64,000 nucleotides of DNA from Hyphomicrobiaceae bacterium (GTDB taxonomy: Bacteria > Pseudomonadota > Alphaproteobacteria > Rhizobiales > Xanthobacteraceae): positions 5,307-69,306 of the forward strand of contig JAJPJB010000031.1 of assembly GCA_021324465.1 (NCBI GenBank). Reading direction: 5' to 3'. The notes beneath the pieces are model-generated. The model worked only from the letters and a program-made list of their open reading frames with translations, had not been told where the DNA came from and did not search any database. A program made the position numbers and the translations under genes. Shown here piece after piece: positions 39,480 to 62,278 of the stretch (positions are counted from its first letter, which is position 1; the number at the start of each line of letters is the position of its first letter).

Positions 39480-39518
39480 CGCCCCTTCTCCACTTTCCGC
39501 AGGCCGACGCCGCATCCC

Positions 39519-40817: not shown

Positions 40818-42626
40818 ATGCGTTATGTTTCACTTCCGCTTGGCACCTGCATAGGCATGCTTGCGGCGCTCGCCGCAGGTCACGTCTATGCCGACAGTGA
40901 TCTCGACAAGGCGGCACAAAACCCAAACAACTGGGCGATGCCCTCACTCACCTACGATGCTCAACGCTACTCGACACTCAAGCAGATTAATACCGGCAAC
41001 GTCGGCAAGCTGCAGGTGGCATGGACGTTCTCGACCGGCGTACTTCGCGGCCATGAAGGCGCTCCGCTGGTTATCGGCAACGTCATGTACGTCCATACGC
41101 CGTTTCCCAATAATGTTTTTGCTCTGGATCTGAACAACGACGGCAAGATCCTCTGGAAGTACGAGCCAAAGCAGGATCCGAACGTCATCCCGGTCATGTG
41201 CTGTGACACGGTCAATCGTGGACTATCCTATGGTGCCGGCAAGATTTTCCTTTACCAGGCCGACACTACCTTGGTTGCACTCGACGCCAAAACCGGCAAA
41301 GTCGCCTGGACCGCGAAAAATGGCGATCCAACGAAGGCGCAGACCGGCACGTCGGCGCCCTTTGTGATCAAGGACAAGGTACTTGTCGGCATTTCTGGCG
41401 GCGAGTTCGGCGTGCAATGCCACGTCACCGCATATGACATCAATACCGGCAAGCAGGTCTGGCGCGCCTTCTCGGAAGGACCGGACGATCAAATTCTGGT
41501 CGATCCCGAGAAGACCACCGCGCTCGGCAAGCCGATTGGCAAGGATTCGAGCATCAAGACCTGGCAAGGCGATCAGTGGAAGATCGGCGGCGGCTGCACC
41601 TGGGGCTGGATGGCCTACGATCCGCAGTTGAACCTGGTCTATTACGGTTCCGGCAATCCTTCGACTTGGAATCCGAAGCAGCGCCCCGGCGACAACAAAT
41701 GGTCGATGACCATCTGGGCGCGTAATCCGGATACCGGCATGGCCAAATGGGTCTATCAGATGACGCCGCACGACGAGTGGGATTACGACGGCGTCAACGA
41801 GATGATCCTCACCGATCAGCAAATCAACGGCCGGCAGCGCAAGCTGCTGACGCACTTCGATCGCAATGGTCTCGGCTATACTCTGGATCGCGAAACCGGC
41901 GAGCTTCTCGTCGCGCAGAAATACGATCCGAAGGTGAACTGGACCACTGGCGTCGACATGAACAAGAACTCGCCGACCTACGGCCGGCCCACTGTCGTGT
42001 CGCAATATTCAACCGACCAGAACGGCGAAGACCACAACACCAAAGGCATCTGCCCGGCCGCACTCGGATCGAAGGACGAGCAGCCGGCCGCTTATTCGCC
42101 GGAAACGCAGCTGTTCTACGTGCCGACCAACCACGTCTGCATGGACTACGAGCCGTTTAAGGTGAGCTACACGGCGGGACAGCCCTATGTCGGAGCCACG
42201 CTCTCGATGTACCCGCCCCCCGGTGACTCGAACATGGGCAATTTCATTGCCTGGGACGGCAAGACGGGAAAGATCGTCTGGTCCGATCCTGAGCTGTTCT
42301 CGGTGTGGTCCGGCGCGCTTGCGACCGCGGGCGGCGTGGTGTTCTACGGCACGCTGGAGGGCTACCTGAAAGCGGTCGACGCCAAGACGGGCAAGGAACT
42401 CTACAAGTTCAAGACTCCGTCTGGCATCATCGGCAACGTCATGACCTATATGCACAACGGCAAGCAGTACATTGCCGTGCTGTCGGGTGTCGGCGGCTGG
42501 GCCGGCATCGGTCTTGCGGCTGGCCTGACGGACCCGCACGCCGGCTTGGGCGCGGTAGGCGGCTATGCGGCGTTGAGCAACTACACGGCGCTTGGCGGGC
42601 AACTCACAGTCTTCGCGTTGCCTTGA
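40818..42626 (+). CDS. xoxF: Lanthanide-dependent PQQ methanol dehydrogenase, XoxF type
   Basis: ATG 40818 after GGGAGGA. Signal, then [20 protein letters not shown], vicinal Cys [10 protein letters not shown], and [14 protein letters not shown] (extra Asp of XoxF versus Ala in MxaF). No mxaI small subunit follows. Confidence 0.92.
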
Positions 42627-42726: not shown

Positions 42727-43251
42727 GTGAAATCATTTTTCGGCGCGGCCGCATTCGTGCTGGCCGCAATATTGCTTTGGACGGGAGTAGCGCGTGCGGA
42801 CGGATCAGGCGATCCAAAGGCGGTCAAGCAGGAGGATGGCAAGTACTACGACAAGGACGGCAATCCCACCTACAACGTAAAGCCCGACGGCACGGTTGAC
42901 TGGTACACCTATTCCGGCTTCATCCGGTACCATTCTGAGTGTCACGTCTGCCACGGGCCGGACGGACTGGGCTCGTCCTACGCGCCGGCGCTGGCCGACT
43001 CGCTCAAGACGATCGGCTACACCGATTTTCTGAGCATTGTTGCCAATGGTCGCAAGAACGTGAATACCGCGAACGAAAATGTGATGCCTGCGTTTGGCAC
43101 CAGCAAGAACGTGATGTGCGTCATCGACGACATCTATGTTTATCTGCGAGCCCGCGCTAACAATGCGGTCGGCCGCGGACGGCCCGAGAAACATGACGAC
43201 AAGCCGAAGTCGGCGGCGGAGGCACAGGACGCCTGCTTCGGAACCCAGTGA
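42727..43251 (+). CDS. xoxG: Cytochrome c-L family (XoxG/MxaG-type electron acceptor)
   Basis: GTG start, signal, heme motif CHVCHGPDGLGSSYAPAL, NVMPAFG Met region. Confidence 0.85.
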   Translation: MKSFFGAAAFVLAAILLWTGVARADGSGDPKAVKQEDGKYYDKDGNPTYNVKPDGTVDWYTYSGFIRYHSECHVCHGPDGLGSSYAPALADSLKTIGYTDFLSIVANGRKNVNTANENVMPAFGTSKNVMCVIDDIYVYLRARANNAVGRGRPEKHDDKPKSAAEAQDACFGTQ

Positions 43252-43263
43252 AAGGCACGCGCG

Positions 43264-44151
43264 ATGGCGAGAACAGCCCGGCATCGCATCTCGATCTGCG
43301 CCGCGGTGGCCTGCGCAGCGGCGACCGTCATCGCCGTGCCGCTCCCTTCGGCAGCTCAGCAGGGGGGGCCGGGTGAAGCGCTGGAATTGATCGATCCGGA
43401 CGTGCTGCGGGTATGCGCCGACCCGAACAATCTGCCGTTCTCCAATGAGAAGGGCGAAGGCTTTGAAAACAAGCTCGCCGAGTTGTTCGCGGCCAAGCTC
43501 AACAAGCGGCTCGCCTACACGTATTTTCCACAGGCCACGGGCTTCGTGCGCATGACTCTTGGTTCGCATCGGTGCGACGTCATCATGGGTTACCCGCAAG
43601 GCGGCGAGCTGGTGCAAAATACGAATCCCTATTACGAGACGGCTTATGCACTCGTCGCCAAGGCGGGCGGTCCGCTCGACGGGGTGAGTACCTTGGCTGA
43701 TGCGCGGCTCAAGGACAAACGACTCGGCATCATTGCCGGCACGCCGCCAGCCACGTATCTTGTTGCCGACGGGTTGATGGCGAAGGCCAAGCCGTATCCG
43801 CTCATGGTCGACACCCGGTTCGACTCCTCGGCCGTAACCATGATGAACGATCTCGCCTCAGGCGACATCGATGCCGGCGTGCTGTGGGGACCAATCGCAG
43901 GATATTATGCCGCCCGCGCAAATCCTCCGCTGCATGTGGCGCTGCTTCTCAAGGACACCGGCGGGCCGCATCTCGTTTACCACATCACCATGGGCGTCCG
44001 ACCATCCGATCAGAATTGGAAGAGACAGCTGAACCGGCTGATCGCCGAGAACCAACCCGCCATCAACAAGATACTGTTGGATTTCGGCGTGCCCATCCTT
44101 GACGAGCATGAGCAGCCGATCAGCGGCCATTCACTGAATCAAAAGCCATGA
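43264..44151 (+). CDS. xoxJ: MoxJ/XoxJ family periplasmic binding-protein-like protein
   Basis: LRVCADPNNLPFSNEKGEGFENKLAELFA...CDVIMGYPQG...GIIAGTPPA type-2 PBP fold typical of MxaJ/XoxJ. Confidence 0.85.
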   Translation: MARTARHRISICAAVACAAATVIAVPLPSAAQQGGPGEALELIDPDVLRVCADPNNLPFSNEKGEGFENKLAELFAAKLNKRLAYTYFPQATGFVRMTLGSHRCDVIMGYPQGGELVQNTNPYYETAYALVAKAGGPLDGVSTLADARLKDKRLGIIAGTPPATYLVADGLMAKAKPYPLMVDTRFDSSAVTMMNDLASGDIDAGVLWGPIAGYYAARANPPLHVALLLKDTGGPHLVYHITMGVRPSDQNWKRQLNRLIAENQPAINKILLDFGVPILDEHEQPISGHSLNQKP

Positions 44152-44717
44152 CGCGCCACGCCGTCGCGCTGGTCGGATCTATCGTGGTGGGAACGTGCAT
44201 TGTCGCGATTGCCGGTACACACGCACTCGGTCAAGGCGCGCCGCAAGAGCCGTCCGAGTATCGCATGCAGAATTACCGCGCGCCGACGCCGGCAACGTTG
44301 CGCGGCGCCCGCGTGGTCTCGACGGCAGAGGCCGAGAGGCTGTGGCAGGCTGGCGCAGGTTTCATCGACGTTCTGCCGCACGCGCCGCGCCCAGCCAGTT
44401 TGCCGTCCGGCACGATCTGGCAGGAAAAAGTGCGGCTCGATATTCCTGGGAGCATTTGGCTGCCGGATACCGGATACGGTGCGCTGGCAGCAGCGACTGA
44501 GAATTACCTGCGCAAAGGTCTTGAACGCCTTAGCAACGGCGACCACGCGAGGTGGCTGGTCTTCTATTGCCTCAGGGACTGCTGGATGTCTTGGAACGCC
44601 GCCAAGCGGGCTCTGACCATGGGTTATGAAAATGTCGCTTGGTATCCGGACGGTACCGACGGCTGGCAGGCCGCAGGACTTCCGCTGCAACAAGCCAAAC
44701 CGGCCGATCTCGAGTAG
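44148..44717 (+). CDS. PQQ-dependent catabolism-associated CXXCW-motif protein (rhodanese-like domain)
   Basis: ATGA overlap with xoxJ. Leader, then FIDVLPH...IPGSIWLP...LVFYCLRDCWMSWNAAKRA (C-x-x-C-W). Confidence 0.8.
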   Translation: MTRHAVALVGSIVVGTCIVAIAGTHALGQGAPQEPSEYRMQNYRAPTPATLRGARVVSTAEAERLWQAGAGFIDVLPHAPRPASLPSGTIWQEKVRLDIPGSIWLPDTGYGALAAATENYLRKGLERLSNGDHARWLVFYCLRDCWMSWNAAKRALTMGYENVAWYPDGTDGWQAAGLPLQQAKPADLE

Positions 44718-44726
44718 AGTTCCGTC

Positions 44727-45347
44727 TTAGTTCAGATTTTGTCGGATCGCTCGCGCCAGCGCGAACAGGCGCTGCTCGATCGTGGTCGGCACTTCACACA
44801 CATAGCGGATGGTCTTGCGTCGATCTTCGAATATGCGCGTGCTCCATTCGACCCGACTGGCAAGGTCGTTGACCTTTGACGGGTCCTGGTTCGGCTTGTC
44901 CTCGAGCCGGTGCAGGCTCTCCACGTCCGATTTGATCTTGTCCGCAAGCTCCTTCTCGTTCCGCGACACCCGTTCGATTCCGTCCATGATCTCGCTGCGC
45001 TGCTGGTTCAAAGTGTCGAACAATCCCGCGAAGAGCTTTGTCGCAGCGCTCTGTTTGTCACTGGGAGCGATTGCGGCCAAAAACTCGTCGATTGCCTTTT
45101 TGGCGGCATCGAGCGGGGTCCGGCGCGCGGCCAACAGGGCGACAAGATCCTTGATCTTGGGATCGTCCTGCCAGCTGTTGCCGACATCAGCGATTGACGG
45201 ACCGTCCCACATCGCCCCGACCGACAGCTCCGGCACTTTGGCCTGCACACAAGGCCAGTCAGGATAACGTGGATCGGCGGCGCGCGCGGCTGACGGCATT
45301 GCCGTCGCGAATATGGCCGAAACGAAAAGAACGCCGAGGCGATTCAT
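44727..45347 (-). CDS. Exported hypothetical protein, predicted coiled-coil, last gene of SBP/propeller operon
   Basis: MNRLGVLFVSAIFATAMPSAARA after GGAG. PDWPCVQAKVPE...heptad-like charged C-terminal half...YVCEVP. No family recognised. Confidence 0.6.
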   Translation of the reverse strand: MNRLGVLFVSAIFATAMPSAARAADPRYPDWPCVQAKVPELSVGAMWDGPSIADVGNSWQDDPKIKDLVALLAARRTPLDAAKKAIDEFLAAIAPSDKQSAATKLFAGLFDTLNQQRSEIMDGIERVSRNEKELADKIKSDVESLHRLEDKPNQDPSKVNDLASRVEWSTRIFEDRRKTIRYVCEVPTTIEQRLFALARAIRQNLN

Positions 45348-45374
45348 CGTCCACTCCAGAAAGCGCGGCACTCG

Positions 45375-46343
45375 TCAGCGGTCGGAGATCGTGACTCCCC
45401 AAGGCTGCTCGCCGACCTGGATCGTGTTCACCACCTTCAAAGCCCCGACATCGATGACCGAAACATCGTTCGACACGCCGTTGGTCGTCAGCAGATATTT
45501 CTCGTCAGGCGTGAATGCCATGTGCCAGACGCGCTCTCCGACCAGGAGATATTTCTTGACTTCATGTGTCGTGCCGTCGACCACCGCGACATGGTTCGAC
45601 GGCCCGAGCGCAACAAAACCGATCTTGCCATCGCGGGTCAGGTTTATGCCAACCGCCTGGATCGGCTCCGGGCGCATGCCGGCGATCGCAAAGGAAATCT
45701 TCTTTTTGATCGCATGCTTGACCGGATCGATAACGCTGACAGTTCCGCCGATCTCAGACGATACCCAAAGCTCCGAGCCGTCCTGCTTGAAGGCAGCGAA
45801 CCGCGGGCGCGCGTCGACCAGCACGCTCGCCACTACTTGGCGCGTGGCTGTGTCGATAAAATGCGCCATGTTTGTGGTTTCGGACGTATTGATGAGGATC
45901 TTGCCGTCAGGACTTACTGCCATGCCCTCTGGCTCGACGCCGACTTGTACATCACCAACCTGCGCGCGGCGGGCGATGTCGATGATGGTGACAGTGTTGT
46001 CGTCCTCATTCGCGACGTAAAGGAATTTTCCGTCCGGACCCTGAGTAAAAAATTCCGGATCGGGGCCAGACGGCAGCTTGTCGACTACTTCATTCGTTGT
46101 GGTATCGATCATCTGAATCGTGTCGTCGTCGCCGACCGCGACGAGCACGTATTTCTGATCCTTGGTATAGGCGATGCCGCGCGGCCGCTGGCCGACTTTG
46201 ATAGTCTTCGTCACGGCCCATTTCTCGGTATCGATGACGGACACCGTGTTGCTCTTCTCGTTCGAGACATAGGCGGTGAAGGCGCCGGCCTCGCCCGCAA
46301 GCAGCGCGCTGAGTGCCATACCGAGTACAAGCCGAAGCCACAT
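45375..46343 (-). CDS. YVTN-type beta-propeller protein (PQQ-dependent catabolism-associated)
   Basis: MWLRLVLGMALSALLAGEAGA. Repeated YVSNEKSNTVSVID / YVANEDDNTVTIID / WVSSEIGGTVSVID / LLTTNGVSNDVSVID blades. Confidence 0.8.
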   Translation of the reverse strand: MWLRLVLGMALSALLAGEAGAFTAYVSNEKSNTVSVIDTEKWAVTKTIKVGQRPRGIAYTKDQKYVLVAVGDDDTIQMIDTTTNEVVDKLPSGPDPEFFTQGPDGKFLYVANEDDNTVTIIDIARRAQVGDVQVGVEPEGMAVSPDGKILINTSETTNMAHFIDTATRQVVASVLVDARPRFAAFKQDGSELWVSSEIGGTVSVIDPVKHAIKKKISFAIAGMRPEPIQAVGINLTRDGKIGFVALGPSNHVAVVDGTTHEVKKYLLVGERVWHMAFTPDEKYLLTTNGVSNDVSVIDVGALKVVNTIQVGEQPWGVTISDR

Positions 46344-46363
46344 CGTTCCGATCTCCCGCATGA

Positions 46364-47548
46364 TCACTTCAGCTGGCATTTGGTTTCCGGGCGATCAATG
46401 CCCAACGTGTCGAGTTCCGAAAATTGATGCAGAAATCCTTCCTGCGGCGACACTGAAACGACTGTACGCCCGTCGGCAAGCAGGATCGGCTGACGAAGTT
46501 GCAGGTCCCAGTCCCGGACCGTCAATTTGCGGCCCTTGAACGCGGCGATCGAAAAGTCCGGCCCCTTCATATAGTCGAGGATCCTCTCGGGATCGGCGGT
46601 GCCGATCCTTCCCACCGCCTCGCCGATCATGCGCACTGCGGTCCACGCCTGCATGTCGAGAGGGGTCATGCGCCGGGAAAATTTTCGTTCAAACCGATCC
46701 TGCAGCTGGATCGCACCCCATTGATCCAGCGCGGCGTCCCAGCTGGTCGGCTCAAGACCCGCAGACCCTGCTACGGGTCGCGGATCGCGTGTTCGATATG
46801 GCAGATAATCGGCGAAGACTTGACTTTCGTCAGCGGCGACCAGCACATCATAATCGGGTGCCGACTGCGTGAAGAGCGGTATCTGGCTTTGAATCTGCAC
46901 AAGGCCGCTGTCTGTGCGCCGGGCACCGCCGGTATCTTCGAACACGCGCTCCTGAACGATCTTGGCGCCGAACCTGGTGGCCGATCGGCGCAGCGCATCG
47001 GCATAGAGCTTGTCCGGCGCGTGGGAACCCACGACAAGGAGCCATCGCGTCCAGTGTTTCCACACCAGATACTGCGCGAGGCCGTCCGCAAGCATGGCGC
47101 GGCTCGGTGCGGTGTGAATCACATTGGCACGGCAGTCTTGCTGACGCAGACGATCATCGATTGCGCCGGCATTGAAGAAAATGAGGCCGCGCGCGCGCCC
47201 AGCGTCACTGGCCTTGAGCAACATGTCCGCGCGAAGGTCGGAGAGGAAAAGGGAGATACCGCGATCGGCGAGTTGCATTGTCGCGGCCGCGGGATCGTCT
47301 TGGTCTTTCAGTCGCACGTCCTCAACGGAAAACGACTGATTGAGGAATTTGCCGGTCGTATTGTTGTCGTCGATCGCGAGCTGGGCGCCGGCGATGCCGT
47401 CATTGCCCGGCGGCATTTCGACGAGCGAAATCGTCTCCGTTCTGTCGGCACGGCCGAGATAGCCGATCTTGACATCGAGGGGTGCCGCGCCGGCAGGCAG
47501 GGAAATTGCGCCGCATGCAACTACGGTCGCGCAAATAGCTCGGATCAA
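46364..47548 (-). CDS. LivK-like periplasmic substrate-binding protein of the PQQ-dehydrogenase-associated ABC system
   Basis: Signal MIRAICATVVACGAISLPAGA. KIGYLGRADRTETISLVEMPPGNDGIAGAQLAIDDNNTTG type-1 PBP pattern. Confidence 0.75.
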   Translation of the reverse strand: MIRAICATVVACGAISLPAGAAPLDVKIGYLGRADRTETISLVEMPPGNDGIAGAQLAIDDNNTTGKFLNQSFSVEDVRLKDQDDPAAATMQLADRGISLFLSDLRADMLLKASDAGRARGLIFFNAGAIDDRLRQQDCRANVIHTAPSRAMLADGLAQYLVWKHWTRWLLVVGSHAPDKLYADALRRSATRFGAKIVQERVFEDTGGARRTDSGLVQIQSQIPLFTQSAPDYDVLVAADESQVFADYLPYRTRDPRPVAGSAGLEPTSWDAALDQWGAIQLQDRFERKFSRRMTPLDMQAWTAVRMIGEAVGRIGTADPERILDYMKGPDFSIAAFKGRKLTVRDWDLQLRQPILLADGRTVVSVSPQEGFLHQFSELDTLGIDRPETKCQLK

Positions 47549-54728: not shown

Positions 54729-56114
54729 GTGCAGCTGCTGCTCGTGTTTGTGCTCATTGACCTTGTCGCGGTGTTCATTGCCGGTGCTGTCGCCATCCTG
54801 CGGGCCCGCGCCCAAACGCGGGTCGAAATGGCCGCGTCGATGCGTCTTGCCGGGCTTTTGGTGGGCGACGCTGTCACTCTGCTCCGTCAGGCGCTTCCGG
54901 CCGAGCAGTTCTTGACGGTCTTGCCGGCACAACTGCGGTCGATGCGCCACGTTCGGATCACAGTGAAGGACGGCAAGAGCGACCCCATCCTCGCGCCGCT
55001 GTCCGGTGCCGCCGGTCAAGGCCCTGACATTCACGCACCTGCGCCCGCGTGGTTTGCGGCCCTGGTCGCCCCGCCGACCGAGATTGTGGACGTGCCGGTA
55101 ATGGTTGAGGGCGAGAAGCTCGGCGAAGTCGAAATCGTCGGCGAGCCAGCGGATGAAATCGCCGAAGTCTGGCAAAACATGGTCGTGATCGGCGGGGTGG
55201 CCGTTGCGCTAAACGTTGCGGTTGTCGGCATTCTCTACGTTCTGTTTGGGCGCGTGCTCAATCCGCTGACTGCGCTTGCAAGCGCCCTCTCCGATCTCGA
55301 GCGCCAGAGCTACAATGTGCGATTGCCGCCGCCGCAGGCGCGCGAACTTTTCGTCCTTACCAGTCACTTCAATTCGCTCGCCGTCGCACTTGAAACGGCG
55401 CGCACAGAAAACCTGCAACTCAATCGTCGGCTGATTACCGCTCAGGACGACGAGCGAAGGCGTACCGCGCTCGAGCTGCACGACGAAGTCGGGCCTTGCC
55501 TGTTCGGGCTTAAGGCTAACGCATCGTCGATTGCGAGCACCGCCAGGCAGCTCCCCGACAAACCAAGGCAGACCGTGTCGGAACGCCTGCGCGAGATGCT
55601 GACCATCGTTGATCATTTACAGGCCATCAATCGCAGTATGCTTGACCGGCTACGGCCGATGGCGCTTGGCCATGTCCCGCTCAAGGAGGTTCTCCGCCAG
55701 CTCGTACATGATCGGGCACGCCAAAATCCGCAGATGTCGTTCGCCTTCATTGCCGACGAGCTCTTGCACAGCTACGGCGATTCGATCGACCTCACCCTCT
55801 ATCGCTGCATCCAGGAAGGGCTGACCAATGCCATTCGCCACGGGCAGGCGAGCACCGTCTCAGTCAAGCTTGGCTGCGAACAGCCCGAGGGTCCGCTCGC
55901 ATTGACTGTGAGCGACGATGGGTGCGGGATCAGCCCTGACGCGCCGGCCGGGCTTGGCATGCGCGGCATGCGCGAACGGGTCGAAGGCTTGGGCGGCCGC
56001 TATGTCGTCGACAGCGGGCCCGGCCGCGGCACATGTCTGCGCATCACTATTCCTTTGGCCGAACCGCAAGACGGCGGGACGGACATGAAGCCATGGAACG
56101 GTACGCAGGCATGA
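54729..56114 (+). CDS. Sensor histidine kinase, NarX/DesK-like (TM-HAMP-HisKA_3-HATPase)
   Basis: VQLLLVFVLIDLVAVFIAGAV TM...HAMP...H-box ELHDEVGPCLFG...GLTNAIRHG...DDGCGI...GLGMRGMRERV. Start uncertain (in-frame GTGs near 54540-54729). The 685-aa track ORF overlaps pqqA/pqqB and is rejected. Confidence 0.8.
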   Translation: MQLLLVFVLIDLVAVFIAGAVAILRARAQTRVEMAASMRLAGLLVGDAVTLLRQALPAEQFLTVLPAQLRSMRHVRITVKDGKSDPILAPLSGAAGQGPDIHAPAPAWFAALVAPPTEIVDVPVMVEGEKLGEVEIVGEPADEIAEVWQNMVVIGGVAVALNVAVVGILYVLFGRVLNPLTALASALSDLERQSYNVRLPPPQARELFVLTSHFNSLAVALETARTENLQLNRRLITAQDDERRRTALELHDEVGPCLFGLKANASSIASTARQLPDKPRQTVSERLREMLTIVDHLQAINRSMLDRLRPMALGHVPLKEVLRQLVHDRARQNPQMSFAFIADELLHSYGDSIDLTLYRCIQEGLTNAIRHGQASTVSVKLGCEQPEGPLALTVSDDGCGISPDAPAGLGMRGMRERVEGLGGRYVVDSGPGRGTCLRITIPLAEPQDGGTDMKPWNGTQA

Positions 56115-56746
56115 GCCGCGTCCTTGTCATCGACGACCACCCTATTGTGCTGCAAGGCTGCCGGCGCATGCTGGAAGACGCTGGCGTAACTGATGTACTC
56201 GAGGCGCGCGACGTCGTCTCGGGCTACCGGCTCTACCGCCGCCATCATCCCGAAATGGTGATCGTCGATCTCGCCATGCGGGACAACGGGCTTGGCGGCC
56301 TCCAATTGATCCGGCGGATCGCCGCGCACGACCGGCGCGTGCGAATTCTCGTATTCAGCATGCACAGCGATCCTATTATCGTGACGCGCGCGCTCCAGGC
56401 TGGCGCAATGGGCTACGTGGTCAAAGACACCTCGGCGGATAGATTCCGAGACGCATTCGAGAAGGTCCGCGCCGGGGAGCCGTATTTGAGCAACGAGCTC
56501 GCCATGCAGGTGGCGCTTGCACACGCGCCAGCGCGGCATAATCCGCTCGCCGAGCTGACGCCGCGGGAGCTGCAAACCCTCTCGCTCCTGGCCAAGGGCA
56601 GGCCTTACAGCCGCATCGCCGAAGAGCTTAATGTTAGCTACAAGACAGTGGTCAACGTCAGTTCGCAGCTGAAGCAGAAGCTTGATGCTCAGAATCTACC
56701 GGAACTGATACGCACCGCCGTGCAATTGTTGTCGGCGGCCCGATGA
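56111..56746 (+). CDS. NarL/FixJ family response regulator (REC + LuxR-type HTH)
   Basis: ATGA overlap with the kinase stop. MSRVLVIDDHPIVLQGCRRML...VIVDLAM...LTPRELQTLSLLAKGRPYSRIAEELNVSYKTVVNVSSQLKQKL. Confidence 0.9.
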   Translation: MSRVLVIDDHPIVLQGCRRMLEDAGVTDVLEARDVVSGYRLYRRHHPEMVIVDLAMRDNGLGGLQLIRRIAAHDRRVRILVFSMHSDPIIVTRALQAGAMGYVVKDTSADRFRDAFEKVRAGEPYLSNELAMQVALAHAPARHNPLAELTPRELQTLSLLAKGRPYSRIAEELNVSYKTVVNVSSQLKQKLDAQNLPELIRTAVQLLSAAR

Positions 56747-56879
56747 TTTGGGCTGCGAACGCCGTCTGGACGGAGACCTGCCCGGTTGCCAAAAGTTCCC
56801 GGTTCCATTTGGAAAAACCTTCCGTGACGGCGCGAGGAAATAGCCCCAGAATTCGGTCGGCCGTGGGGACCGGTCGCCC

Positions 56880-59378
56880 GTGCGCAATATCATTGGTGTT
56901 GCTGGTGTACGCTTGTGGGGGGTTCGGGCAGCGTTTTGCCGAGTAGTGACGTTCGCTGTCGCCGGCGTGCTTGCGACGGCGGGGATCGCGGCCGCACAGG
57001 ACAACGCGGGCACAAAGCCGAGCACCGTTAAGCTTCCAGAAATCCGCGTCATCGGCACCACGCCGGTACCGCCGCCGCGCCGGGCCGCCGCACGCCCGGC
57101 TGCGGCAAGAGCTCCGGCAGCGGCCCCGGTTACCGCCCCGGAAGCCGCCGCCAGTACCGCCGCGCCGCAGCCCGGAGCCATCGATCGCGACAAAGTTCCG
57201 GCGAATGTCCAGACGCTCTCCGCGCCCGATTTCGACCATGCCCAGGCCCCGAGCCTGCTGGACGCCATTGCGCGTGGATTGCCCGGCGTGGCGCTCGGCG
57301 ACCAGACCGGCAATGAATTCCAGCGCGATCTCAATTATCGCGGCTACATCGCCTCGCCGGTCATCGGAACACCGCAAGGACTCGCGGTCTATCAGAACGG
57401 GGTCCGCATCAATGAGGTCTTTGGCGACATCGTCAATTGGGACCTCCTGCCAGAGAACGCCGTCAATGGCATGACCCTGGTTCCGAGCAACCCGATCTAT
57501 GGGCTCAATGCCATCGGTGGCGCACTCTCGCTCGAGATGAAGAATGGCTTCACCTATCACGGCACGGAGGGAGAGGTGATGGGCGGCGCGTTCGGCCGGA
57601 TTGGCACCTCGGTCCAGGCCGGCGGCCAGGCTGGAAATTTATCCGGCTACATCACAGCCGATGCGATCAATGATGCCGGCTGGCGCAACGACTCGCCATC
57701 GTACCTGCGGCGCGTTTATGCCGACGTCGGCGCGCGCACCGACCAGACCGAATTTCATGTCGCCTTCACCGGCGCCGACAACGGATTTGGCGCGCTCGTC
57801 GCGACCCCGGTGCAGATGCTGCAGCGGGACTGGGCGAGCATCTACACCGCTCCGCAGACAACGCACAATCAATTGGCCTTCCTCACCGCGAGCGGAAGCT
57901 GGACGCCGACCGATGCGCTTACGTTCCAAACCAATCTCTACTATCGCGGATTTTGGCAGCGCCACATCGATGGCAATGGCACGGCTGCGCAGAATAGCGG
58001 ATGCCCGGATCCGGCGCTGCTGTGCTTTCCCAATCTCGACGGCACCTTGTCCAATCTTACGACAATCGGTGGCGGCACGGTCCCGGCGACCGGCAGTCTC
58101 GGGCCGCCCAGTATTTTGGCGGAGATCGATCGCACTTGGACCTCCGCCAATAGCTTCGGCGGTTCGGTACAGGCGAGTTCCTCGGCGCGGCTGTTCGATC
58201 ACGACAACAACCTCACCATCGGGGTGAGCGTCGACCGCGGCCTTGTGCAGTTCACGACCCTGAGCGAGCTTGGCACACTCAACGCCGACACGTTTCCGTT
58301 CGTAGTCCGCAGCGGCCTTTTCATCGACCAGCCCTCGGGCGACGTGGCGCCAGTCAGGCTGGGCGGCAAGACGCTCTATACCGGCGTCTACGCGACGGAT
58401 ACGTTCGATGTCACGCCGCGCCTTTCCCTGACTACTGGCGCGCGATTCAACCTCGCGCAGATCGGTTTGCAGGACGAATTCGGCGACAATCCCGGCCTTA
58501 ACGGCAGCCACGCCTATAGCCGCCTCAACCCCACAGTCGGCGCGACGTATAAGCTGACGCCCGACCTCATCGTCTATGGCGGCTATTCGGAAGCAAACCG
58601 TGCCCCGACGCCGCTTGAGCTCTCCTGCTCTGACCCGACACGGCCCTGCTTGATCGACAATGCACTGGTCGGCGATCCACCGCTTCAACAAGTGGTGTCG
58701 CATACATTCGAGGCGGGCTTGCGCGGACACCATGATACGGCGAACAGCTCGCTCGCCTGGACGATCGGCGCATTTCACGCGCTGAACACCAACGACATCA
58801 TCGATGTTGCAAGCCCCCTGCCCGGTCACGAGTTCTTCCAGAATGGCGGCCCGACGCTGCGGAAGGGAATCGAAGCCAGCCTGTCCTACAAATGGAATCG
58901 CTGGAACCTTTACGCCAACTACATCTGGGTCGACGCGACCTATCTGAGCGCGTTGACGTTGTCGTCACCGAACAATCCCTTTGCCGATGCCAATGGCAAC
59001 ATTCAGGTCACTCCCGGAGATCATATCCCCGGGATTCCGAACTACCGGTTCAAGACCGGCTTCAATTATCAGATCACCGATTCTTGGAAGTTTGGCGCGG
59101 ACATCTATGCGATCGGCAGCCAATGGCTGGTCGGCGACAGCTCAAACCTGAACCCGAAGGTACCGGCCTATTGGATCGCGAACCTGCATTCGTCTTATCA
59201 ACTGTCGAAGAATGTCGAACTGTTTGGCCTTGTGAAAAACCTGTTCAATCGCCACTACTACGTGTCCGGTACATTCTTCGATACCAATTCATTTCCCTAT
59301 CTCAACCTGACCGATCCGCGCACCTTCCTTCCGGGCATGCCGCTCGCCGTTTACGCCGGGTTGCGCGGTAGGTGGTAG
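56880..59378 (+). CDS. TonB-dependent outer-membrane receptor with Pro/Ala-rich N-terminal linker (LutH-like candidate)
   Basis: Signal ...VLATAGIAAAQD, TonB-box-like VKLPEIRVIG, about 45-aa P/A-rich linker, plug (LDAIARGLPGVALGDQTGNEFQRDLNYRGY), barrel ending ...AVYAGLRGRW. Start 56880 (GTG) or 56946 (GTG). Confidence 0.85.
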   Translation: MRNIIGVAGVRLWGVRAAFCRVVTFAVAGVLATAGIAAAQDNAGTKPSTVKLPEIRVIGTTPVPPPRRAAARPAAARAPAAAPVTAPEAAASTAAPQPGAIDRDKVPANVQTLSAPDFDHAQAPSLLDAIARGLPGVALGDQTGNEFQRDLNYRGYIASPVIGTPQGLAVYQNGVRINEVFGDIVNWDLLPENAVNGMTLVPSNPIYGLNAIGGALSLEMKNGFTYHGTEGEVMGGAFGRIGTSVQAGGQAGNLSGYITADAINDAGWRNDSPSYLRRVYADVGARTDQTEFHVAFTGADNGFGALVATPVQMLQRDWASIYTAPQTTHNQLAFLTASGSWTPTDALTFQTNLYYRGFWQRHIDGNGTAAQNSGCPDPALLCFPNLDGTLSNLTTIGGGTVPATGSLGPPSILAEIDRTWTSANSFGGSVQASSSARLFDHDNNLTIGVSVDRGLVQFTTLSELGTLNADTFPFVVRSGLFIDQPSGDVAPVRLGGKTLYTGVYATDTFDVTPRLSLTTGARFNLAQIGLQDEFGDNPGLNGSHAYSRLNPTVGATYKLTPDLIVYGGYSEANRAPTPLELSCSDPTRPCLIDNALVGDPPLQQVVSHTFEAGLRGHHDTANSSLAWTIGAFHALNTNDIIDVASPLPGHEFFQNGGPTLRKGIEASLSYKWNRWNLYANYIWVDATYLSALTLSSPNNPFADANGNIQVTPGDHIPGIPNYRFKTGFNYQITDSWKFGADIYAIGSQWLVGDSSNLNPKVPAYWIANLHSSYQLSKNVELFGLVKNLFNRHYYVSGTFFDTNSFPYLNLTDPRTFLPGMPLAVYAGLRGRW

Positions 59379-59444
59379 GATGCCTTGCGGAGGCATCTTT
59401 AGCAACATACCTGACAACAAAACTCTTATTGACGAGGATCCCCT

Positions 59445-59849
59445 ATGGTTTCCCGACGCAAGGTAATCGCGGTAGCAATCACGGGTCTAATCACCGCGGC
59501 TACCGCGGCCCGTGCATGGGCGAAATGGGCGTCGCCGGTCGCGCGCTTCGACACCGACAAGGACAATACTGTCGACCTCGCCGAGGCCAAGAAGGCTGCC
59601 GGCAATCTGTTCGACAGGCTCGACACCGACAAGGACGGCACTCTCGATGTCAGGGAATTGCGCGGCAGGCTGAGCCGCAAGGACTTTGCGGCCGCCGATC
59701 CGGACAAGGACAAGACCTTGAGCAAGGACGAATATTTCGCGATTGTCGAGCAGCGCTTCAAAGCTGCCGACGGCGACAATGACGGCAGCATCAGCGCGGC
59801 CGAGTTTCGTACGCCCGCCGGGCGGGCCTTGCTCCGGTTGCTCGATTAA
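59445..59849 (+). CDS. lanM: Exported four-EF-hand protein, lanmodulin-like
   Basis: Loops DTDKDNTVDLAE, DTDKDGTLDVRE, DPDKDKTLSKDE and DGDNDGSISAAE spaced by 12-13 residues. C-terminal FRTPAGRALLRLLD. Aligns by eye along its length with my recollection of M. extorquens LanM. Confidence 0.75.
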   Translation: MVSRRKVIAVAITGLITAATAARAWAKWASPVARFDTDKDNTVDLAEAKKAAGNLFDRLDTDKDGTLDVRELRGRLSRKDFAAADPDKDKTLSKDEYFAIVEQRFKAADGDNDGSISAAEFRTPAGRALLRLLD

Positions 59850-59866
59850 GCTCTGATTGCGCCGGT

Positions 59867-60610
59867 CTATTGCGGGCCCGTCATCGCCAGGAAAGCCTGC
59901 TCGATCGTGCTCGCGCCGCAGTCCGCAACAAGCCGGGCCGGAGTCGTATCGGCGAGCACCTTGCCATGATGCAGCACAATGACGCGATCAGCTCCGGCTA
60001 CCTCGTCGCAAAGGTGGGTGGCCCATAGCACGGCGACCGAGCGGTCGGTGCGCATGCTCAACATCAACTTGAGAAGATCGCTGCGGCTCGCCGGATCGAG
60101 ACCGACGGTCGGCTCGTCCATCAGCAGCACCCGTGGATCGTGCAACAGGGCGCGCGCGAGTTCGACCCGACGGCGGTTGCCGCCGCTCAGGTGCGCCGTC
60201 TTGTCGTGAGCACGTTCGGCGAGCCCAAGCCGCGCTAGCTCCTTCTCGATGCGTTGCTTGGCCATGGCGCGCGGAATTCCGTGCAACCCGGCGTGGAACA
60301 AGAGATTGCCGGTAACGCTCAATTCGAGGTCGAGCGTCGGCTGCTGGAAGACGATGCCCAGCTTTGCCAAAGCCGGCACCGGGTTACGCAGCATATCTTG
60401 GCCGACGATCTCGATGCGACCGGAATCCGGCACAAACAGACCAGATAGCATCTGAAACAGCGTGGTCTTGCCGGCGCCGTTTGGACCAAGAAGGGCGATG
60501 AACTCGCCGGCGAATGCGCGCAGGCTGACGCCGTCCACCGCGCGAATAGCGCCATAGGTCTTTACAACGCCATCGAGAAGAAGCGCCGGCGCGAGCTGTT
60601 CGGTGGCCAT
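59867..60610 (-). CDS. ABC-2-type transporter ATP-binding protein (PQQ-dehydrogenase-system/PedB-like)
   Basis: MATEQLAPALLLDGVVKTYG...GPNGAGKTT...LSGGNRRRVELARAL...LLMDEPTVGLD. Confidence 0.85.
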   Translation of the reverse strand: MATEQLAPALLLDGVVKTYGAIRAVDGVSLRAFAGEFIALLGPNGAGKTTLFQMLSGLFVPDSGRIEIVGQDMLRNPVPALAKLGIVFQQPTLDLELSVTGNLLFHAGLHGIPRAMAKQRIEKELARLGLAERAHDKTAHLSGGNRRRVELARALLHDPRVLLMDEPTVGLDPASRSDLLKLMLSMRTDRSVAVLWATHLCDEVAGADRVIVLHHGKVLADTTPARLVADCGASTIEQAFLAMTGPQ

Positions 60611-60695
60611 CTCGTTAGAGCCCCTGGCTTGCAAGCCGTCCTAATTAAGACTTAGGCTTAAGCGGATGCAATAAACGATCGCCAGCAGGTCGATC

Positions 60696-61538
60696 ATGGC
60701 AAAAACCCCGGCGGCGCCTGGACAGGTTACTCACACACTGCGCGCGCTGCGCGCGGTGACCACGCGCGAGATCCTCAAATTCGTGCAACAGCGTGGACGG
60801 CTCCTTTCTGCTTTGGTGCGTCCGCTGATGTGGCTCGCGGTGTTCGCCGCCGGCTTTTACAACGTCTTCGGTGTCTCGATCATCCCGCCTTATAAGGTGT
60901 ACATCACCTACCAGGTCTATATCGTGCCTGGGCTGCTCGGCATCATCCTTCTGTTTCACGGCATGCAATCCTCGCTCTCGATGGTCTACGACCGCGAGAT
61001 GGGGGTGATGCGCCTTCTTCTGACTGCGCCGCTGCCGCGATGGGTTCTGCTGGGATGCAAGCTCGCGGCCGGAACCGCGCTCTCTGTGATCACTTGCTAC
61101 GTTTTCCTTGCGATCTGCATTTTCTTCGACGTGACGTTCGACCCGATCGCCTGGCTCGAAGTGCTGCCGGCGCTGATCATGTCGGGGCTTATGCTCGGTG
61201 CGCTTTGGCTGTTTCTGTCCGTCTACATTCGACAGGTTGAGAATTTCGCAGGCGCAATGAACTTCGTGATGTTCCCGATGTTCTTTTTCTCCTCCGCGCT
61301 CTATCCGCTGTGGAAGCTGCGCGAGGGCGGCTCAGAACTCATTTACTACGTGGCGCTCGCAAATCCTTTCACCTACGCGGTCGAGCTTATTCGCTTTGCC
61401 CTCTACAGCCAGTTTGAGCCGGTTTCAGCCGCCGTCGTGACAGGCGCCACCGTGCTGTTCTTTCTGCTTGCAGTGCTCGGCTACAACCCACAACGCGGCA
61501 TGATCCGCCGGACCGGGCCGGCCCCGCAGCCAGCGTAG
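60696..61538 (+). CDS. ABC-2-type transporter permease (PedC-like)
   Basis: 280 aa, six predicted TM segments. REILKFVQQRGRLLSALVRPLMWLAVFAAGF typical ABC-2 N-terminus. Divergent from its ATPase. Confidence 0.8.
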   Translation: MAKTPAAPGQVTHTLRALRAVTTREILKFVQQRGRLLSALVRPLMWLAVFAAGFYNVFGVSIIPPYKVYITYQVYIVPGLLGIILLFHGMQSSLSMVYDREMGVMRLLLTAPLPRWVLLGCKLAAGTALSVITCYVFLAICIFFDVTFDPIAWLEVLPALIMSGLMLGALWLFLSVYIRQVENFAGAMNFVMFPMFFFSSALYPLWKLREGGSELIYYVALANPFTYAVELIRFALYSQFEPVSAAVVTGATVLFFLLAVLGYNPQRGMIRRTGPAPQPA

Positions 61539-61540
61539 CG

Positions 61541-62278
61541 TCAGGCCTGCTTGCTGCTGCGCGTGATCTGGTTGCGAATAGCGGCGAGCTCATCGGCCGA
61601 ACGCGTGCGGCGCGGATTCGCGATCGGCACGTCGGCCATGACACGCGCCGGCGACGCGGAGAGCAAAATAACGCGGTCGGCCAGCAGCACGGCCTCATCG
61701 AGGTCATGTGTGACGAGAAGCGTTGTCACCGGCCGGCGTGCGACCAGTTCGACGAGTTCGGTACGCAGTCGCGCCGCCAGTTCGGCGTCAAGTGAAACAA
61801 ATGGCTCATCGAGTACGAGCAGATCGGGCTCGACCGCCAATGCACGGGCTAAGGCGACCCGGCGGGCAAGGCCAAGCGAAAGTTCGCCCGGATAATGGCG
61901 GCAATGTGCGGTCAACCCGAGCGCTGCGAACAGCGCGCCCAGCACCGCCTCGCTCGCCGCCGGCGCCGCAAGCCGCACGTTCTCTTCAACGGTGCGCCAC
62001 GGCAGCAGACGCGGCTCCTGAAAGACGAAGCCAACACTCCCGCACGCTCGCAGGTGCACGCTGCCTTCGAAATCGCGCTCCAGCCCGACGATGATGCGCA
62101 GCAACGTTGTTTTGCCGCAGCCGGACGGCCCGACAAGCGCCACGACCTCCCCGTTCGCCAGAGTGATGAAAAGATCGTCAAGCACATGCAGCCTGCCGCC
62201 GGAGGCGGTGCGATAGGACTTGTGCTTGATATGCACATCAAGCCGGCTTGCTACGCCAGCGGGAGACGTATCGTTCAA
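61541..62278 (-). CDS. NitT/TauT family ABC transporter ATP-binding protein
   Basis: GPSGCGKTTLLRIIVGLE, LSLGLARRVALARAL, LVLDEPFVSLD. Start uncertain (TTG 62278 or GTG 62236; track start 62317). Confidence 0.8.
   Translation of the reverse strand: MNDTSPAGVASRLDVHIKHKSYRTASGGRLHVLDDLFITLANGEVVALVGPSGCGKTTLLRIIVGLERDFEGSVHLRACGSVGFVFQEPRLLPWRTVEENVRLAAPAASEAVLGALFAALGLTAHCRHYPGELSLGLARRVALARALAVEPDLLVLDEPFVSLDAELAARLRTELVELVARRPVTTLLVTHDLDEAVLLADRVILLSASPARVMADVPIANPRRTRSADELAAIRNQITRSSKQA

What the first reader, a model, noticed from the sequence alone, without database searches (positions are those of the whole stretch)
56880..59849. Lanmodulin-type four-EF-hand protein directly downstream of a TonB-dependent receptor (lutH-lanM-like pair), with a Pro-poor loop variant
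Seen: 59445-59849 encodes a 134-aa exported protein with four 12-residue EF loops at residues 36-47, 60-71, 85-96 and 109-120. The loops are separated by only 12-13 residues, and the protein ends ...FRTPAGRALLRLLD. Established: this compressed spacing (versus about 25 residues in calmodulin) and the C-terminal tail match lanmodulin of Methylorubrum extorquens, whose gene neighbours the lanthanide TonB receptor lutH. Unusual: only EF3 keeps the LanM-hallmark Pro at loop position 2 (Thr, Thr and Gly elsewhere). Only EF1 and EF2 keep Asp at position 9. The leader carries an SRRKVI twin-arginine-like motif. The receptor has a roughly 45-aa Pro/Ala-rich linker after its TonB box. Inference: this is a rare-earth capture/uptake pair serving the XoxF at 40818. 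A natural Pro-poor LanM could have different lanthanide selectivity.
Basis: partly seen in the sequence, partly recalled or inferred. Interest (0 to 1): 0.78.

Follow-up and report, generated by a model that had tools for sequence, protein, structure and literature searches.

The report
Lanmodulin gene beside lanthanide receptor
This is an ordinary, uncharacterised member of the known lanmodulin family of rare-earth-binding proteins, sitting next to a LutH-like outer-membrane receptor inside a complete lanthanide-dependent methanol-oxidation island of an uncultured soil bacterium.

Summary
ORF 59445-59849 encodes a 134-aa exported protein with four 12-residue EF loops at exactly the stated residues, spaced 12/13/12.

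- **LanM identity:** it scores above NCBI's curated cut-off for the lanmodulin LanM equivalog model (156 vs 135 bits). It matches Mex-LanM in the PDB at E = 1.6e-30. Its AlphaFold model superposes on Mex-LanM 8fns (TM 0.96, 0.7 Å).
- **Receptor:** the upstream TonB-dependent receptor is 38% identical over its full length to the receptor occupying the lutH position in Methylorubrum.
- **Rest of the system:** the window also holds lutE, lutF, lutA, lutB and lutG homologues, xoxFGJ (XoxF with the DYD motif), pqq genes and a two-component system.

The "unusual" features are not peculiar to this gene. Few Pro residues at loop position 2, Ser/Thr at position 9 of EF3 and EF4, and the SRR leader are shared by a large clade. 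That clade comes mostly from soil metagenomes and MAGs, at least 120 clusters at 68-79% identity. Non-Pro LanMs have already been described and assayed.

The one point I found no paper on is the clade-wide twin-arginine leader (116/120, against 9/120 among Mex-type LanMs). Tat-signal profile models do not recognise it.

Verdict: new member of a known kind, low to moderate interest.

The parts
56880..59378 (+). LutH-like TonB-dependent receptor (832 aa; an alternative start 22 codons downstream is used in one public gene call)
   Evidence: Plug and barrel domains. 38% identity, 530 bits, full length, to the Methylorubrum receptor in the lutH position. No named NCBIfam receptor subfamily reaches its cut-off.
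57027..57056 (+). TonB-box-like segment VKLPEIRVIG (residues 50-59)
   Evidence: Read from the translation. The equivalent 'LPEI.V' segment is present in homologues from L001, L007 and L031.
57057..57176 (+). Pro/Ala-rich low-complexity linker (residues 60-99, 65% P+A)
   Evidence: Its length varies among homologues: present in L001, L007 and L020, short or absent in L004, L018, L031 and L034.
59445..59849 (+). lanM: lanmodulin, 134-aa precursor
   Evidence: NF053806 LanM equivalog, 156.1 bits against a cut-off of 135. Mex-LanM 8fns/6mi5, E = 1.6e-30. Model TM 0.96 to 8fns.
59445..59522 (+). Signal peptide with twin-arginine motif (MVSRRKVIAVAITGLITAATAARAWA; the cleavage site is inferred)
   Evidence: [ST]RR is found in 116/120 clade members against 9/120 in the Mex-type set. 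pLDDT is below 55 for residues 1-30. No Tat profile hit.
59550..59585 (+). EF1 loop DTDKDNTVDLAE (Thr at position 2, Asp at position 9)
59622..59657 (+). EF2 loop DTDKDGTLDVRE (Thr at position 2, Asp at position 9)
59697..59732 (+). EF3 loop DPDKDKTLSKDE (Pro at position 2, Lys at position 6, Ser at position 9)
59769..59804 (+). EF4 loop DGDNDGSISAAE (Gly at position 2, Ser at position 9)
59867..60634 (-). lutE homologue: ABC ATPase of the PQQ-dependent alcohol dehydrogenase system
   Evidence: TIGR03864, 315.8 bits against a cut-off of 302. 51% identity to the Methylorubrum gene in the lutE position.
60696..61538 (+). lutF homologue: ABC-2 permease (PedC type)
   Evidence: TIGR03861, 353.8 bits. 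59% identity to the Methylorubrum gene in the lutF position.
54729..56114 (+). Sensor histidine kinase with a LapD/MoxY-type periplasmic domain
   Evidence: Pfam PF16448, HisKA_3 and HATPase_c. Lies beside lanM in L001, L003, L005, L007, L010 and L011.
56093..56746 (+). LuxR/NarL-type response regulator
   Evidence: Response_reg and GerE domains. 73-76% identical copies lie next to lanM in related MAGs. A 39% identical regulator lies between the receptor and lanM on the M. nodulans plasmid.
46364..47548 (-). lutA homologue: periplasmic binding protein of the PQQ-ADH ABC system
   Evidence: TIGR03863, 483 bits. 45% identity to the Methylorubrum gene in the lutA position.
45375..46379 (-). lutB homologue: beta-propeller protein
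   Evidence: TIGR03866, 504 bits. 61% identity to the Methylorubrum gene in the lutB position.
44727..45371 (-). lutG homologue: exported protein
   Evidence: 39% identity to the Methylorubrum gene in the lutG position by tblastn, E = 7e-48.
40818..42626 (+). xoxF: lanthanide-type PQQ methanol dehydrogenase
   Evidence: TIGR03075, 782 bits. DYD motif in [11 protein letters not shown].
42727..44717 (+). xoxG (cytochrome c, 42727-43251), xoxJ-like (43264-44151) and the CXXCW protein (44148-44717)
   Evidence: Gene calls with Pfam families. TIGR03871 and TIGR03865.

Best explanation
Genes 56880-59849 are a lutH-like TonB-dependent receptor followed by lanM. They form the outer-membrane and periplasmic part of a lanthanide acquisition system.

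By analogy with Methylorubrum extorquens (inferred, not shown here), the system would work in three steps:

1. The receptor brings Ln(III), free or chelated, into the periplasm using TonB energy.
2. The exported LanM folds from a disordered state into a three-helix bundle on binding Ln(III) at its EF loops. It buffers or shuttles the metal in the periplasm.
3. LutA/LutE/LutF (all in the window) carry the metal across the inner membrane. This supports expression and metallation of the XoxF methanol dehydrogenase encoded 17 kb upstream.

The 66-nt gap between the two genes holds no terminator-like site, which suggests co-transcription. The adjacent MoxY-type kinase and LuxR-type regulator are the likely controllers.

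The LanM belongs to a distinct clade found mostly in soil metagenomes and MAGs. Members have Thr at EF1 position 2, Pro mainly at EF3, Ser/Thr at position 9 of EF3 and EF4, and a conserved SRR leader.
For: **Shown**

- LanM equivalog HMM above its cut-off.
- Mex-LanM E = 1.6e-30, with Hans-LanM and Ancylobacter LanM next in the PDB list.
- 12/13/12 loop spacing.
- Model pLDDT above 90 over the mature domain. Foldseek's best hit is 8fns, TM 0.96, rmsd 0.7 Å; other EF-hand proteins reach TM 0.63 or less, most at much higher rmsd.
- Receptor 38% identical over its full length to the Methylorubrum receptor in the lutH position. Gene order in that locus matches the published lut cluster (PMC7391723).
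- Homologues of lutE (51%), lutF (59%), lutA (45%), lutB (61%) and lutG (39%) are present.
- Receptor-lanM linkage recurs in Methylorubrum, the M. nodulans plasmid, Methylocystis, Bradyrhizobium and several MAGs.
- A 36% identical receptor sits inside a Sphingobium PQQ-dehydrogenase cluster.
- XoxF carries DYD.
- No terminator-like site between the receptor and lanM.

**From the literature**

- lutH, lutE and lutF are needed for La-dependent growth and uptake in AM1 (PMC7391723).
- LanM is periplasmic and its expression depends on MxcQE and the Ln receptor in M. aquaticum (PMC9260416).
Against: - No biochemistry or genetics exists for this protein or this clade.
- lanM knockouts in M. extorquens PA1 and M. 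aquaticum have no methanol-growth defect, so the shuttle role is not established even in model strains (PMC9260416).
- The receptor is almost as similar (35-36%) to receptors of Sphingobium and Burkholderia as to the Methylorubrum receptor. Its substrate is therefore inferred from context only.
- Only EF1 and EF2 have the full Asp-1/3/5/9 plus Glu-12 set. EF3 and EF4 resemble ordinary Ca-type loops at position 9.
- The all-Pro-to-Ala variant of Mex-LanM responds well to Ca (PMC9907080).
- Many lanM loci have no receptor within 6 kb.
Confidence: 0.85

Rival explanations
1. The EF-hand protein is a general periplasmic Ca(II)-binding or buffering protein that has lost lanthanide specificity. Three of its four loops lack Pro at position 2, and EF3 and EF4 have Ser at position 9 as in ordinary EF hands.
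For: - Position 2 is T/T/P/G and position 9 is D/D/S/S.
- The 4P2A variant of Mex-LanM responds well to Ca(II) (PMC9907080).
- LanM-like proteins with no Pro at position 2 (Rhizobiaceae, clusters C2/C3) show flat rare-earth selectivity (bioRxiv 10.64898/2026.01.22.699517).
Against: - It scores above the LanM equivalog cut-off.
- It keeps the 12/13/12 spacing, Asp at positions 1/3/5 and Glu at 12 in all four loops, Thr at position 7 in EF1-3 (Ser in EF4), and one Pro at position 2. That meets all three published LanM criteria (PMC10232371).
- M. aquaticum LanM, with T and K at position 2 of EF1 and EF2, changes conformation on La binding (PMC9260416).
- The gene sits between lutH and lutE/F homologues in a XoxF island.
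Confidence: 0.08
2. The receptor imports something other than lanthanides, such as PQQ (PqqU/YncD type) or an iron siderophore. On this view its position next to lanM is incidental.
For: - The best solved-structure matches are YncD and the PQQ transporter PqqU.
- The best NCBIfam model is PqqU.
- The pqq genes lie 2.5 kb upstream.
Against: - Those matches are weak and cover only the C-terminal part of the receptor: 47 bits in the PDB search, and 96 bits against a cut-off of 1200 for PqqU.
- The receptor in the lutH position gives 530 bits over the full length.
- Receptor-lanM adjacency recurs across families.
- The organism encodes its own PQQ synthesis genes.
Confidence: 0.07

Closest known systems
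Lanmodulin of Methylorubrum extorquens AM1 (Mex-LanM; PDB 6mi5, 8fns)
   Same: - Four EF loops with 12/13/12 spacing, about 134-aa precursor with a signal peptide, and a C-terminal PAG..L..L tail.
- 51% identity to the near-identical (97%) M. rhodesianum precursor, and 56% over the core aligned to 8fns.
- Predicted three-helix-bundle fold, TM 0.96.
- The gene lies directly downstream of a TonB-dependent receptor.
   Different: - Mex-LanM has Pro at position 2 of all four loops, Asp at position 9 of all four, and Gly at position 6.
- Its leader is Sec-type with a single Arg (MAFRLSSAVLL...).
- The window protein has T/T/P/G at position 2, D/D/S/S at position 9, Asn at position 6 of EF1, Lys at position 6 of EF3, and an SRR leader.
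LutH, the TonB-dependent lanthanide receptor of the M. extorquens lut cluster (META1p1785)
   Same: - Plug plus barrel receptor of about 835 aa, collinear alignment at 38% identity.
- Placed immediately upstream of lanM.
- lutA, B, E, F and G homologues are also present.
   Different: - The comparison used the receptor of M. rhodesianum identified by its position, not the AM1 protein itself.
- The lut genes here are split into two blocks 9 kb apart, with lutE on the opposite strand.
- No lutC or lutD homologue was found at E < 1e-3.
- The Pro/Ala linker is mostly absent from the Methylorubrum receptor.
Lanmodulin of Methylobacterium aquaticum 22A
   Same: A natural LanM with non-Pro residues (T, K) at position 2 of EF1 and EF2. 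It still responds to La, and its expression is controlled by a two-component system (MxcQE) and the Ln receptor (PMC9260416).
   Different: The 22A gene is not clustered with lut genes. No sequence comparison with it was run here.
Hans-LanM (Hansschlegelia quercus; PDB 8dq2) and Ancylobacter lacus LanM (9pi2)
   Same: Same fold and loop spacing. Non-Gly residues occur at loop position 6 in the Hans cluster (Lys or Gln), as in EF3 here (bioRxiv 10.64898/2026.01.22.699517).
   Different: Only 36-37% identity. The Hans cluster has Asn at position 1 of EF1-3 (bioRxiv 10.64898/2026.01.22.699517) and shows metal-dependent dimerisation (PMC10232371). The window protein has Asp at position 1 in all four loops, and no test for dimerisation was possible.

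Membership tests
Lanmodulin (LanM) | Four EF-hand loops in a protein shorter than 200 residues (criterion of Mattocks et al. 2023, PMC10232371) | tested here: met
   Four D-x-D-x-D-x6-E loops at residues 36, 60, 85 and 109 of a 134-aa protein.
Lanmodulin (LanM) | Adjacent EF hands separated by 12-13 residues rather than about 25 | tested here: met
   Spacing is 12/13/12, identical in 106/106 clade members and 109/111 of the Mex-type set.
Lanmodulin (LanM) | At least one EF hand with Pro at loop position 2 | tested here: met
   EF3 is DPDKDK... (Pro86). Only one of four loops has it.
Lanmodulin (LanM) | Score above the curated cut-off of NCBIfam NF053806 (lanmodulin LanM, equivalog) | tested here: met
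   156.1 bits against a cut-off of 135, covering model positions 3-131 of 132.
Lanmodulin (LanM) | Three-helix-bundle fold with the metal sites on the periphery | tested here: met
   AF2 model has pLDDT above 90 over residues 31-134. Foldseek best hit 8fns, TM 0.96, rmsd 0.7 Å. This is a prediction, not a solved structure.
Lanmodulin (LanM) | [quoted passage not shown] | not testable with these tools
   Needs purified protein and chelator-buffered titrations.
LutH-type TonB-dependent lanthanide receptor | Plug plus beta-barrel TonB-dependent receptor with full-length homology to M. extorquens LutH | tested here: met
   Pfam Plug and barrel domains. 38% identity over 834 columns, 530 bits, to the Methylorubrum rhodesianum receptor in the lutH position.
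LutH-type TonB-dependent lanthanide receptor | Closer to LutH than to receptors of other known specificity | tested here: inconclusive
   All named NCBIfam receptor models fall far below their cut-offs, and PDB matches are weak. However, receptors of unknown substrate in Sphingobium and Burkholderia are 35-36% identical. No phylogeny with characterised receptors was built.
LutH-type TonB-dependent lanthanide receptor | Genomic association with lanM, lut ABC genes or PQQ alcohol dehydrogenase genes | tested here: met
   Window gene order. Recurs in L001, L003, L005, L007, L011, L018, L020, L027 and L031, on the M. nodulans plasmid and in a Sphingobium PQQ-dehydrogenase cluster.
LutH-type TonB-dependent lanthanide receptor | Required for Ln uptake and the lanthanide switch; expression repressed by Ln | not testable with these tools
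   Genetic and expression data exist only for AM1, PA1, M. aquaticum and M. trichosporium (PMC7391723, PMC9260416, PMC12482762).
Twin-arginine (Tat) signal peptide | S/T-R-R-x-hydrophobic-hydrophobic motif before a mildly hydrophobic h-region, with basic residues near the cleavage site | tested here: met
   The leader has SRRKVI, then a 16-residue uncharged stretch, then ARAWA-K. RR-type LanM leaders have lower hydrophobicity (2.19 vs 2.36), more Gly/Thr/Ser, and 2.6 vs 1.1 basic residues after the h-region.
Twin-arginine (Tat) signal peptide | Recognition by curated Tat-signal profile models | tested here: not met
   Four clade leaders scanned against the whole Pfam and NCBIfam libraries at E <= 10 gave no Tat-signal family. 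Short models and HMMER's filters make this a weak negative.
Twin-arginine (Tat) signal peptide | Export depends on TatABC and is abolished by RR to KK | not testable with these tools
   Needs an experiment.

The most novel reading that the evidence does not exclude
This LanM represents a distinct subfamily, found mostly in soil metagenomes and MAGs, that is exported by the Tat pathway rather than Sec and has only two fully LanM-type sites (EF1 and EF2). Tat normally carries folded proteins. Tat export would therefore raise the possibility that these LanMs fold, perhaps metal-loaded, in the cytoplasm and carry lanthanide out to periplasmic XoxF. The Sec-exported Mex-LanM could not do this. Alternatively, these LanMs could be a natural case of Tat export of an intrinsically disordered protein. 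Either way, stoichiometry and selectivity could differ from Mex-LanM.
Probability: 0.3. Interest if true: 0.5.

Novelty: new member of a known kind. Interest (0 to 1): 0.25.

Why it matters
As a gene-finding result it is routine. It shows that an uncultured soil alphaproteobacterium carries the full known lanthanide toolkit (XoxF, Lut transport, LanM, PQQ synthesis) on one 25-kb island.

Its modest value has two parts:

- **A defined natural LanM subfamily.** Members have Thr at position 2 of EF1, Lys at position 6 of EF3 and Ser/Thr at position 9 of EF3 and EF4. This subfamily could be added to the ongoing selectivity surveys aimed at rare-earth separation.
- **A clade-specific twin-arginine leader.** If it is functional, it bears on the open question of where and how LanM and XoxF acquire their metal.

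Tried and rejected
- **Tat profile check.** I scanned four clade leaders and a Methylorubrum LanM leader (M. rhodesianum) against Pfam and NCBIfam at E <= 10. No Tat-signal family appeared, only chance hits (DUF2749, TrbK, BRANT). The Tat reading therefore rests on motif conservation only.
- **Supplement search.** I looked for clade peptides in the supplements of the two large LanM surveys, to learn whether this clade had been assayed. No supplement is held for the 2026 preprint, and there were no matches in the 16 files of the Nature paper.
- **Literature search.** A search for "lanmodulin" with "twin-arginine" returned three papers. The one I opened discusses Tat only for PedH; the other two are broad reviews with one mention each.
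- **Promoter and terminator scan of 56600-60800.** No sigma-70-like promoter was found. The two terminator-like sites both lie inside genes on the minus strand and number no more than expected by chance.
- **Receptor as PqqU, YncD or siderophore type.** Rejected as the primary reading, because those matches are weak and cover only the C-terminal part of the receptor.
- **RR leader as an artefact of a GC-rich genome favouring Arg.** Rejected. XoxF, XoxJ, the CXXCW protein, LutA, LutB and LutG in the same window all have non-RR leaders. High-GC Methylobacterium LanMs have a single Arg.
- **lutC and lutD.** No homologue was found in the window by tblastn at E < 1e-3.
Full report
**1. The observation**

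ORF 59445-59849 (+) starts at an ATG preceded by GAGGA and encodes 134 residues.

- A loop search finds exactly four 12-residue EF loops: DTDKDNTVDLAE (36-47), DTDKDGTLDVRE (60-71), DPDKDKTLSKDE (85-96) and DGDNDGSISAAE (109-120). The linkers are 12, 13 and 12 residues.
- Position 2 reads T, T, P, G and position 9 reads D, D, S, S.
- The leader is MVSRRKVIAVAITGLITAATAARAWA and the tail is FRTPAGRALLRLLD.
- The upstream ORF 56880-59378 (+) is an 832-aa TonB-dependent receptor with Plug and barrel domains.
- The receptor has a TonB-box-like VKLPEIRVIG, then a 40-residue stretch that is 65% Pro+Ala.

The only corrections are the linker length (40 residues, not about 45) and an uncertain receptor start (one public gene call begins 22 codons later).

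**2. What the small protein is**

- It scores 156.1 bits on NCBIfam NF053806, "lanmodulin LanM", an equivalog model with a cut-off of 135.
- Against the PDB, the best matches are the two structures of M. extorquens lanmodulin (8fns and 6mi5, E = 1.6e-30). Ancylobacter lacus LanM (E = 8e-19) and Hansschlegelia LanM (E = 3e-18) follow. Ordinary EF-hand proteins appear only at E > 1e-4.
- An AlphaFold2 model from a 64-sequence alignment has pLDDT above 90 over residues 31-134.
- Foldseek puts 8fns first (TM 0.96 on the target, rmsd 0.7 Å, 56% identity), followed by Hans-LanM. Other EF-hand proteins reach TM 0.63 or less, most at much higher rmsd.
- The field's three criteria for a LanM are four EF hands, 12-13-residue spacing, and at least one Pro at position 2 (PMC10232371). 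All three are met.

**3. What the receptor and its surroundings are**

I retrieved the lut cluster of Methylorubrum rhodesianum through its LanM, which is 97% identical to Mex-LanM. Its gene order matches the published lutA-H-lanM map of AM1 (PMC7391723).

| Window gene | Identity to the Methylorubrum gene in that position |
|---|---|
| Receptor (lutH position) | 38% over 834 columns, 530 bits |
| lutE homologue (59867-60634, −) | 51% |
| lutF homologue (60696-61538, +) | 59% |
| lutA homologue (46364-47548, −) | 45% |
| lutB homologue (45375-46379, −) | 61% |
| lutG homologue (44727-45371, −) | 39% |

- NCBIfam places the lutE, lutF, lutA and lutB homologues in the "PQQ-dependent alcohol dehydrogenase system" families TIGR03864, 03861, 03863 and 03866.
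- lutA, lutB and lutG lie next to xoxF (40818-42626, with the lanthanide-type DYD motif), xoxG, a xoxJ-like gene and a CXXCW protein.
- Tetrahydromethanopterin-related genes, pqqABCD, a MoxY-type histidine kinase and a LuxR-type response regulator lie between the two blocks.
- The window is therefore a complete lanthanide-dependent methylotrophy island.
- It is identical, over the stretches fetched around lanM and lutB, to contigs of a soil MAG (GCA_037025345.1) and of JGI metagenomes.

**4. Is the receptor really LutH-like?**

- No named receptor subfamily in NCBIfam reaches its cut-off. The best, PqqU, scores 96 bits against 1200.
- The only solved-structure matches, YncD and PqqU, are weak and cover only the C-terminal part of the receptor (47 bits).
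- In the plasmid collection the best hit is a Methylobacterium nodulans receptor (44%). A response regulator and an EF-hand LanM (48% identical to ours) follow it.
- A 36% identical Sphingobium receptor sits inside a PQQ-dehydrogenase cluster.
- Among 27 genome loci with a LanM relative, a homologous receptor lies within 6 kb in 9 of them (L001, L003, L004, L005, L007, L011, L018, L020, L027). The same holds in the Methylorubrum lut loci L031/L032, fetched separately. These loci span Methylocystis, Bradyrhizobium, Methylorubrum and MAGs.
- Context therefore supports the assignment.
- Sequence identity alone does not separate LutH from the 35-36% relatives, and I built no phylogeny. The substrate is inferred.

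**5. The "unusual" features**

The 120 best homologues (68-79% identical, from 1943 hits) form one clade, drawn mostly from soil metagenomes and MAGs.

- Within the clade, EF1 position 2 is Thr in 98% and EF2 is Thr or Ala. EF3 is Pro in 89%, and EF4 is Pro in 47% or Ala in 36%.
- Position 9 is Thr/Ser in 95% of EF3 and Ser in 92% of EF4. EF3 position 6 is Lys in 89%.
- Proteins in the clade have 0, 1 or 2 Pro residues at position 2 (11, 45 and 50 proteins). In the Mex-type set the counts are 4, 3 or 2 (42, 53 and 15 proteins).
- A neighbour-joining tree shows the clade as one group next to Bradyrhizobium LanMs.
- The window protein is thus a typical member, not an outlier.

Natural non-Pro LanMs are already documented:

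- M. aquaticum LanM has T and K at position 2 of EF1 and EF2 and responds to La (PMC9260416).
- The 621-orthologue survey describes position 2 as weakly conserved, and finds that EF-loop features alone do not set selectivity.

**6. The leader**

- [ST]RR occurs in 116 of 120 clade members (typically MISRR[KNS]A[IVM]) while the h-region varies freely.
- Only 9 of the 120 top hits to Mex-LanM have it, chiefly a group that includes Tardiphaga proteins with TRRTVL.
- RR-type leaders are slightly less hydrophobic and richer in Gly/Thr/Ser. They are followed by more basic residues (2.6 vs 1.1).
- In this window XoxF, XoxJ, the CXXCW protein, LutA, LutB and LutG all have non-RR leaders.
- These are the expected properties of Tat signals.
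- Against this, no Tat-signal profile matched, and the n-region is very short.
- I found no paper in the library that links lanmodulin to Tat.
- This is the only aspect that may be new, and it remains a hypothesis.

**7. Mechanism**

- **Shown:** family membership, predicted fold, gene content and recurrent linkage.
- **Inferred from M. extorquens and M. aquaticum work:** the receptor admits Ln to the periplasm. LanM binds it there. LutAEF import it. XoxF uses it. The neighbouring two-component system may regulate the pair.
- **Caveat:** lanM deletions have no methanol-growth defect in model strains, so LanM's exact role is open even there.

**8. Verdict**

It is a new, uncharacterised member of the lanmodulin family with a LutH-like receptor, and its "variant" features are clade-wide. 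Interest is low to moderate (0.25). The most novel reading not excluded is a Tat-exported LanM subfamily with two high-affinity sites (probability about 0.3).

Noticed in passing
window 54729-56746: A MoxY-type sensor kinase and a LuxR-type response regulator lie directly upstream of the receptor and lanM. Copies with 57-76% identity lie next to lanM in six related MAG loci (L001, L003, L005, L007, L010, L011). A 39% identical regulator lies between the receptor and lanM on the M. nodulans plasmid pMNOD02. This may be a dedicated lanthanide-responsive regulator; MxcQE controls lanM in M. aquaticum.
   Followed up: partly
window 59445-59522; proteins P0002-P0120 and P0160, P0166, P0169, P0173, P0185: A twin-arginine leader is conserved in this LanM clade and in a separate group that includes Tardiphaga proteins (TRRTVL). 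Methylobacterium, Methylorubrum and Bradyrhizobium LanMs have single-Arg Sec-type leaders. I found no paper in the library that mentions this.
   Followed up: partly
window 38655-40571 and 44148-44717: Three accessory genes of the "quinoprotein relay system" flank xoxFGJ: a SoxYZ-like carrier (TIGR04557), zinc metallohydrolase 2 (TIGR04559) and a CXXCW-motif protein (TIGR03865). The same set surrounds the 36% identical receptor on the Sphingobium indicum plasmid.
   Followed up: partly
window 44727-47548 versus 56880-61538: The lut genes are split into two blocks (lutG-B-A beside xoxFGJ; lutH-lanM-lutE-lutF 9 kb away). lutE is convergent with lanM with only 17 nt between the stop codons. No lutC or lutD homologue was detected.
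   Followed up: partly
window 61541-63967 (-): A second ABC importer (ATPase, BPD_transp_1 permease, NMT1-type binding protein) lies just after lutF. Its binding protein has a TRRALL twin-arginine-like leader. The substrate is unknown.
   Followed up: no
L002, L006, L008, L009, L012-L017, L019, L021, L024, L025: Many lanM relatives in genomes and MAGs have no receptor, lut gene or two-component system within the flanks fetched (up to 6 kb). lanM is therefore often uncoupled from the uptake genes, as reported for M. aquaticum 22A.
   Followed up: no
window 57057-57176; L001, L007, L020: The Pro/Ala-rich linker after the TonB box varies in length. It is present in some LutH-like receptors and nearly absent in those of Methylorubrum, Bradyrhizobium and M. 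nodulans. It looks like low-complexity spacer sequence rather than a conserved element.
   Followed up: partly
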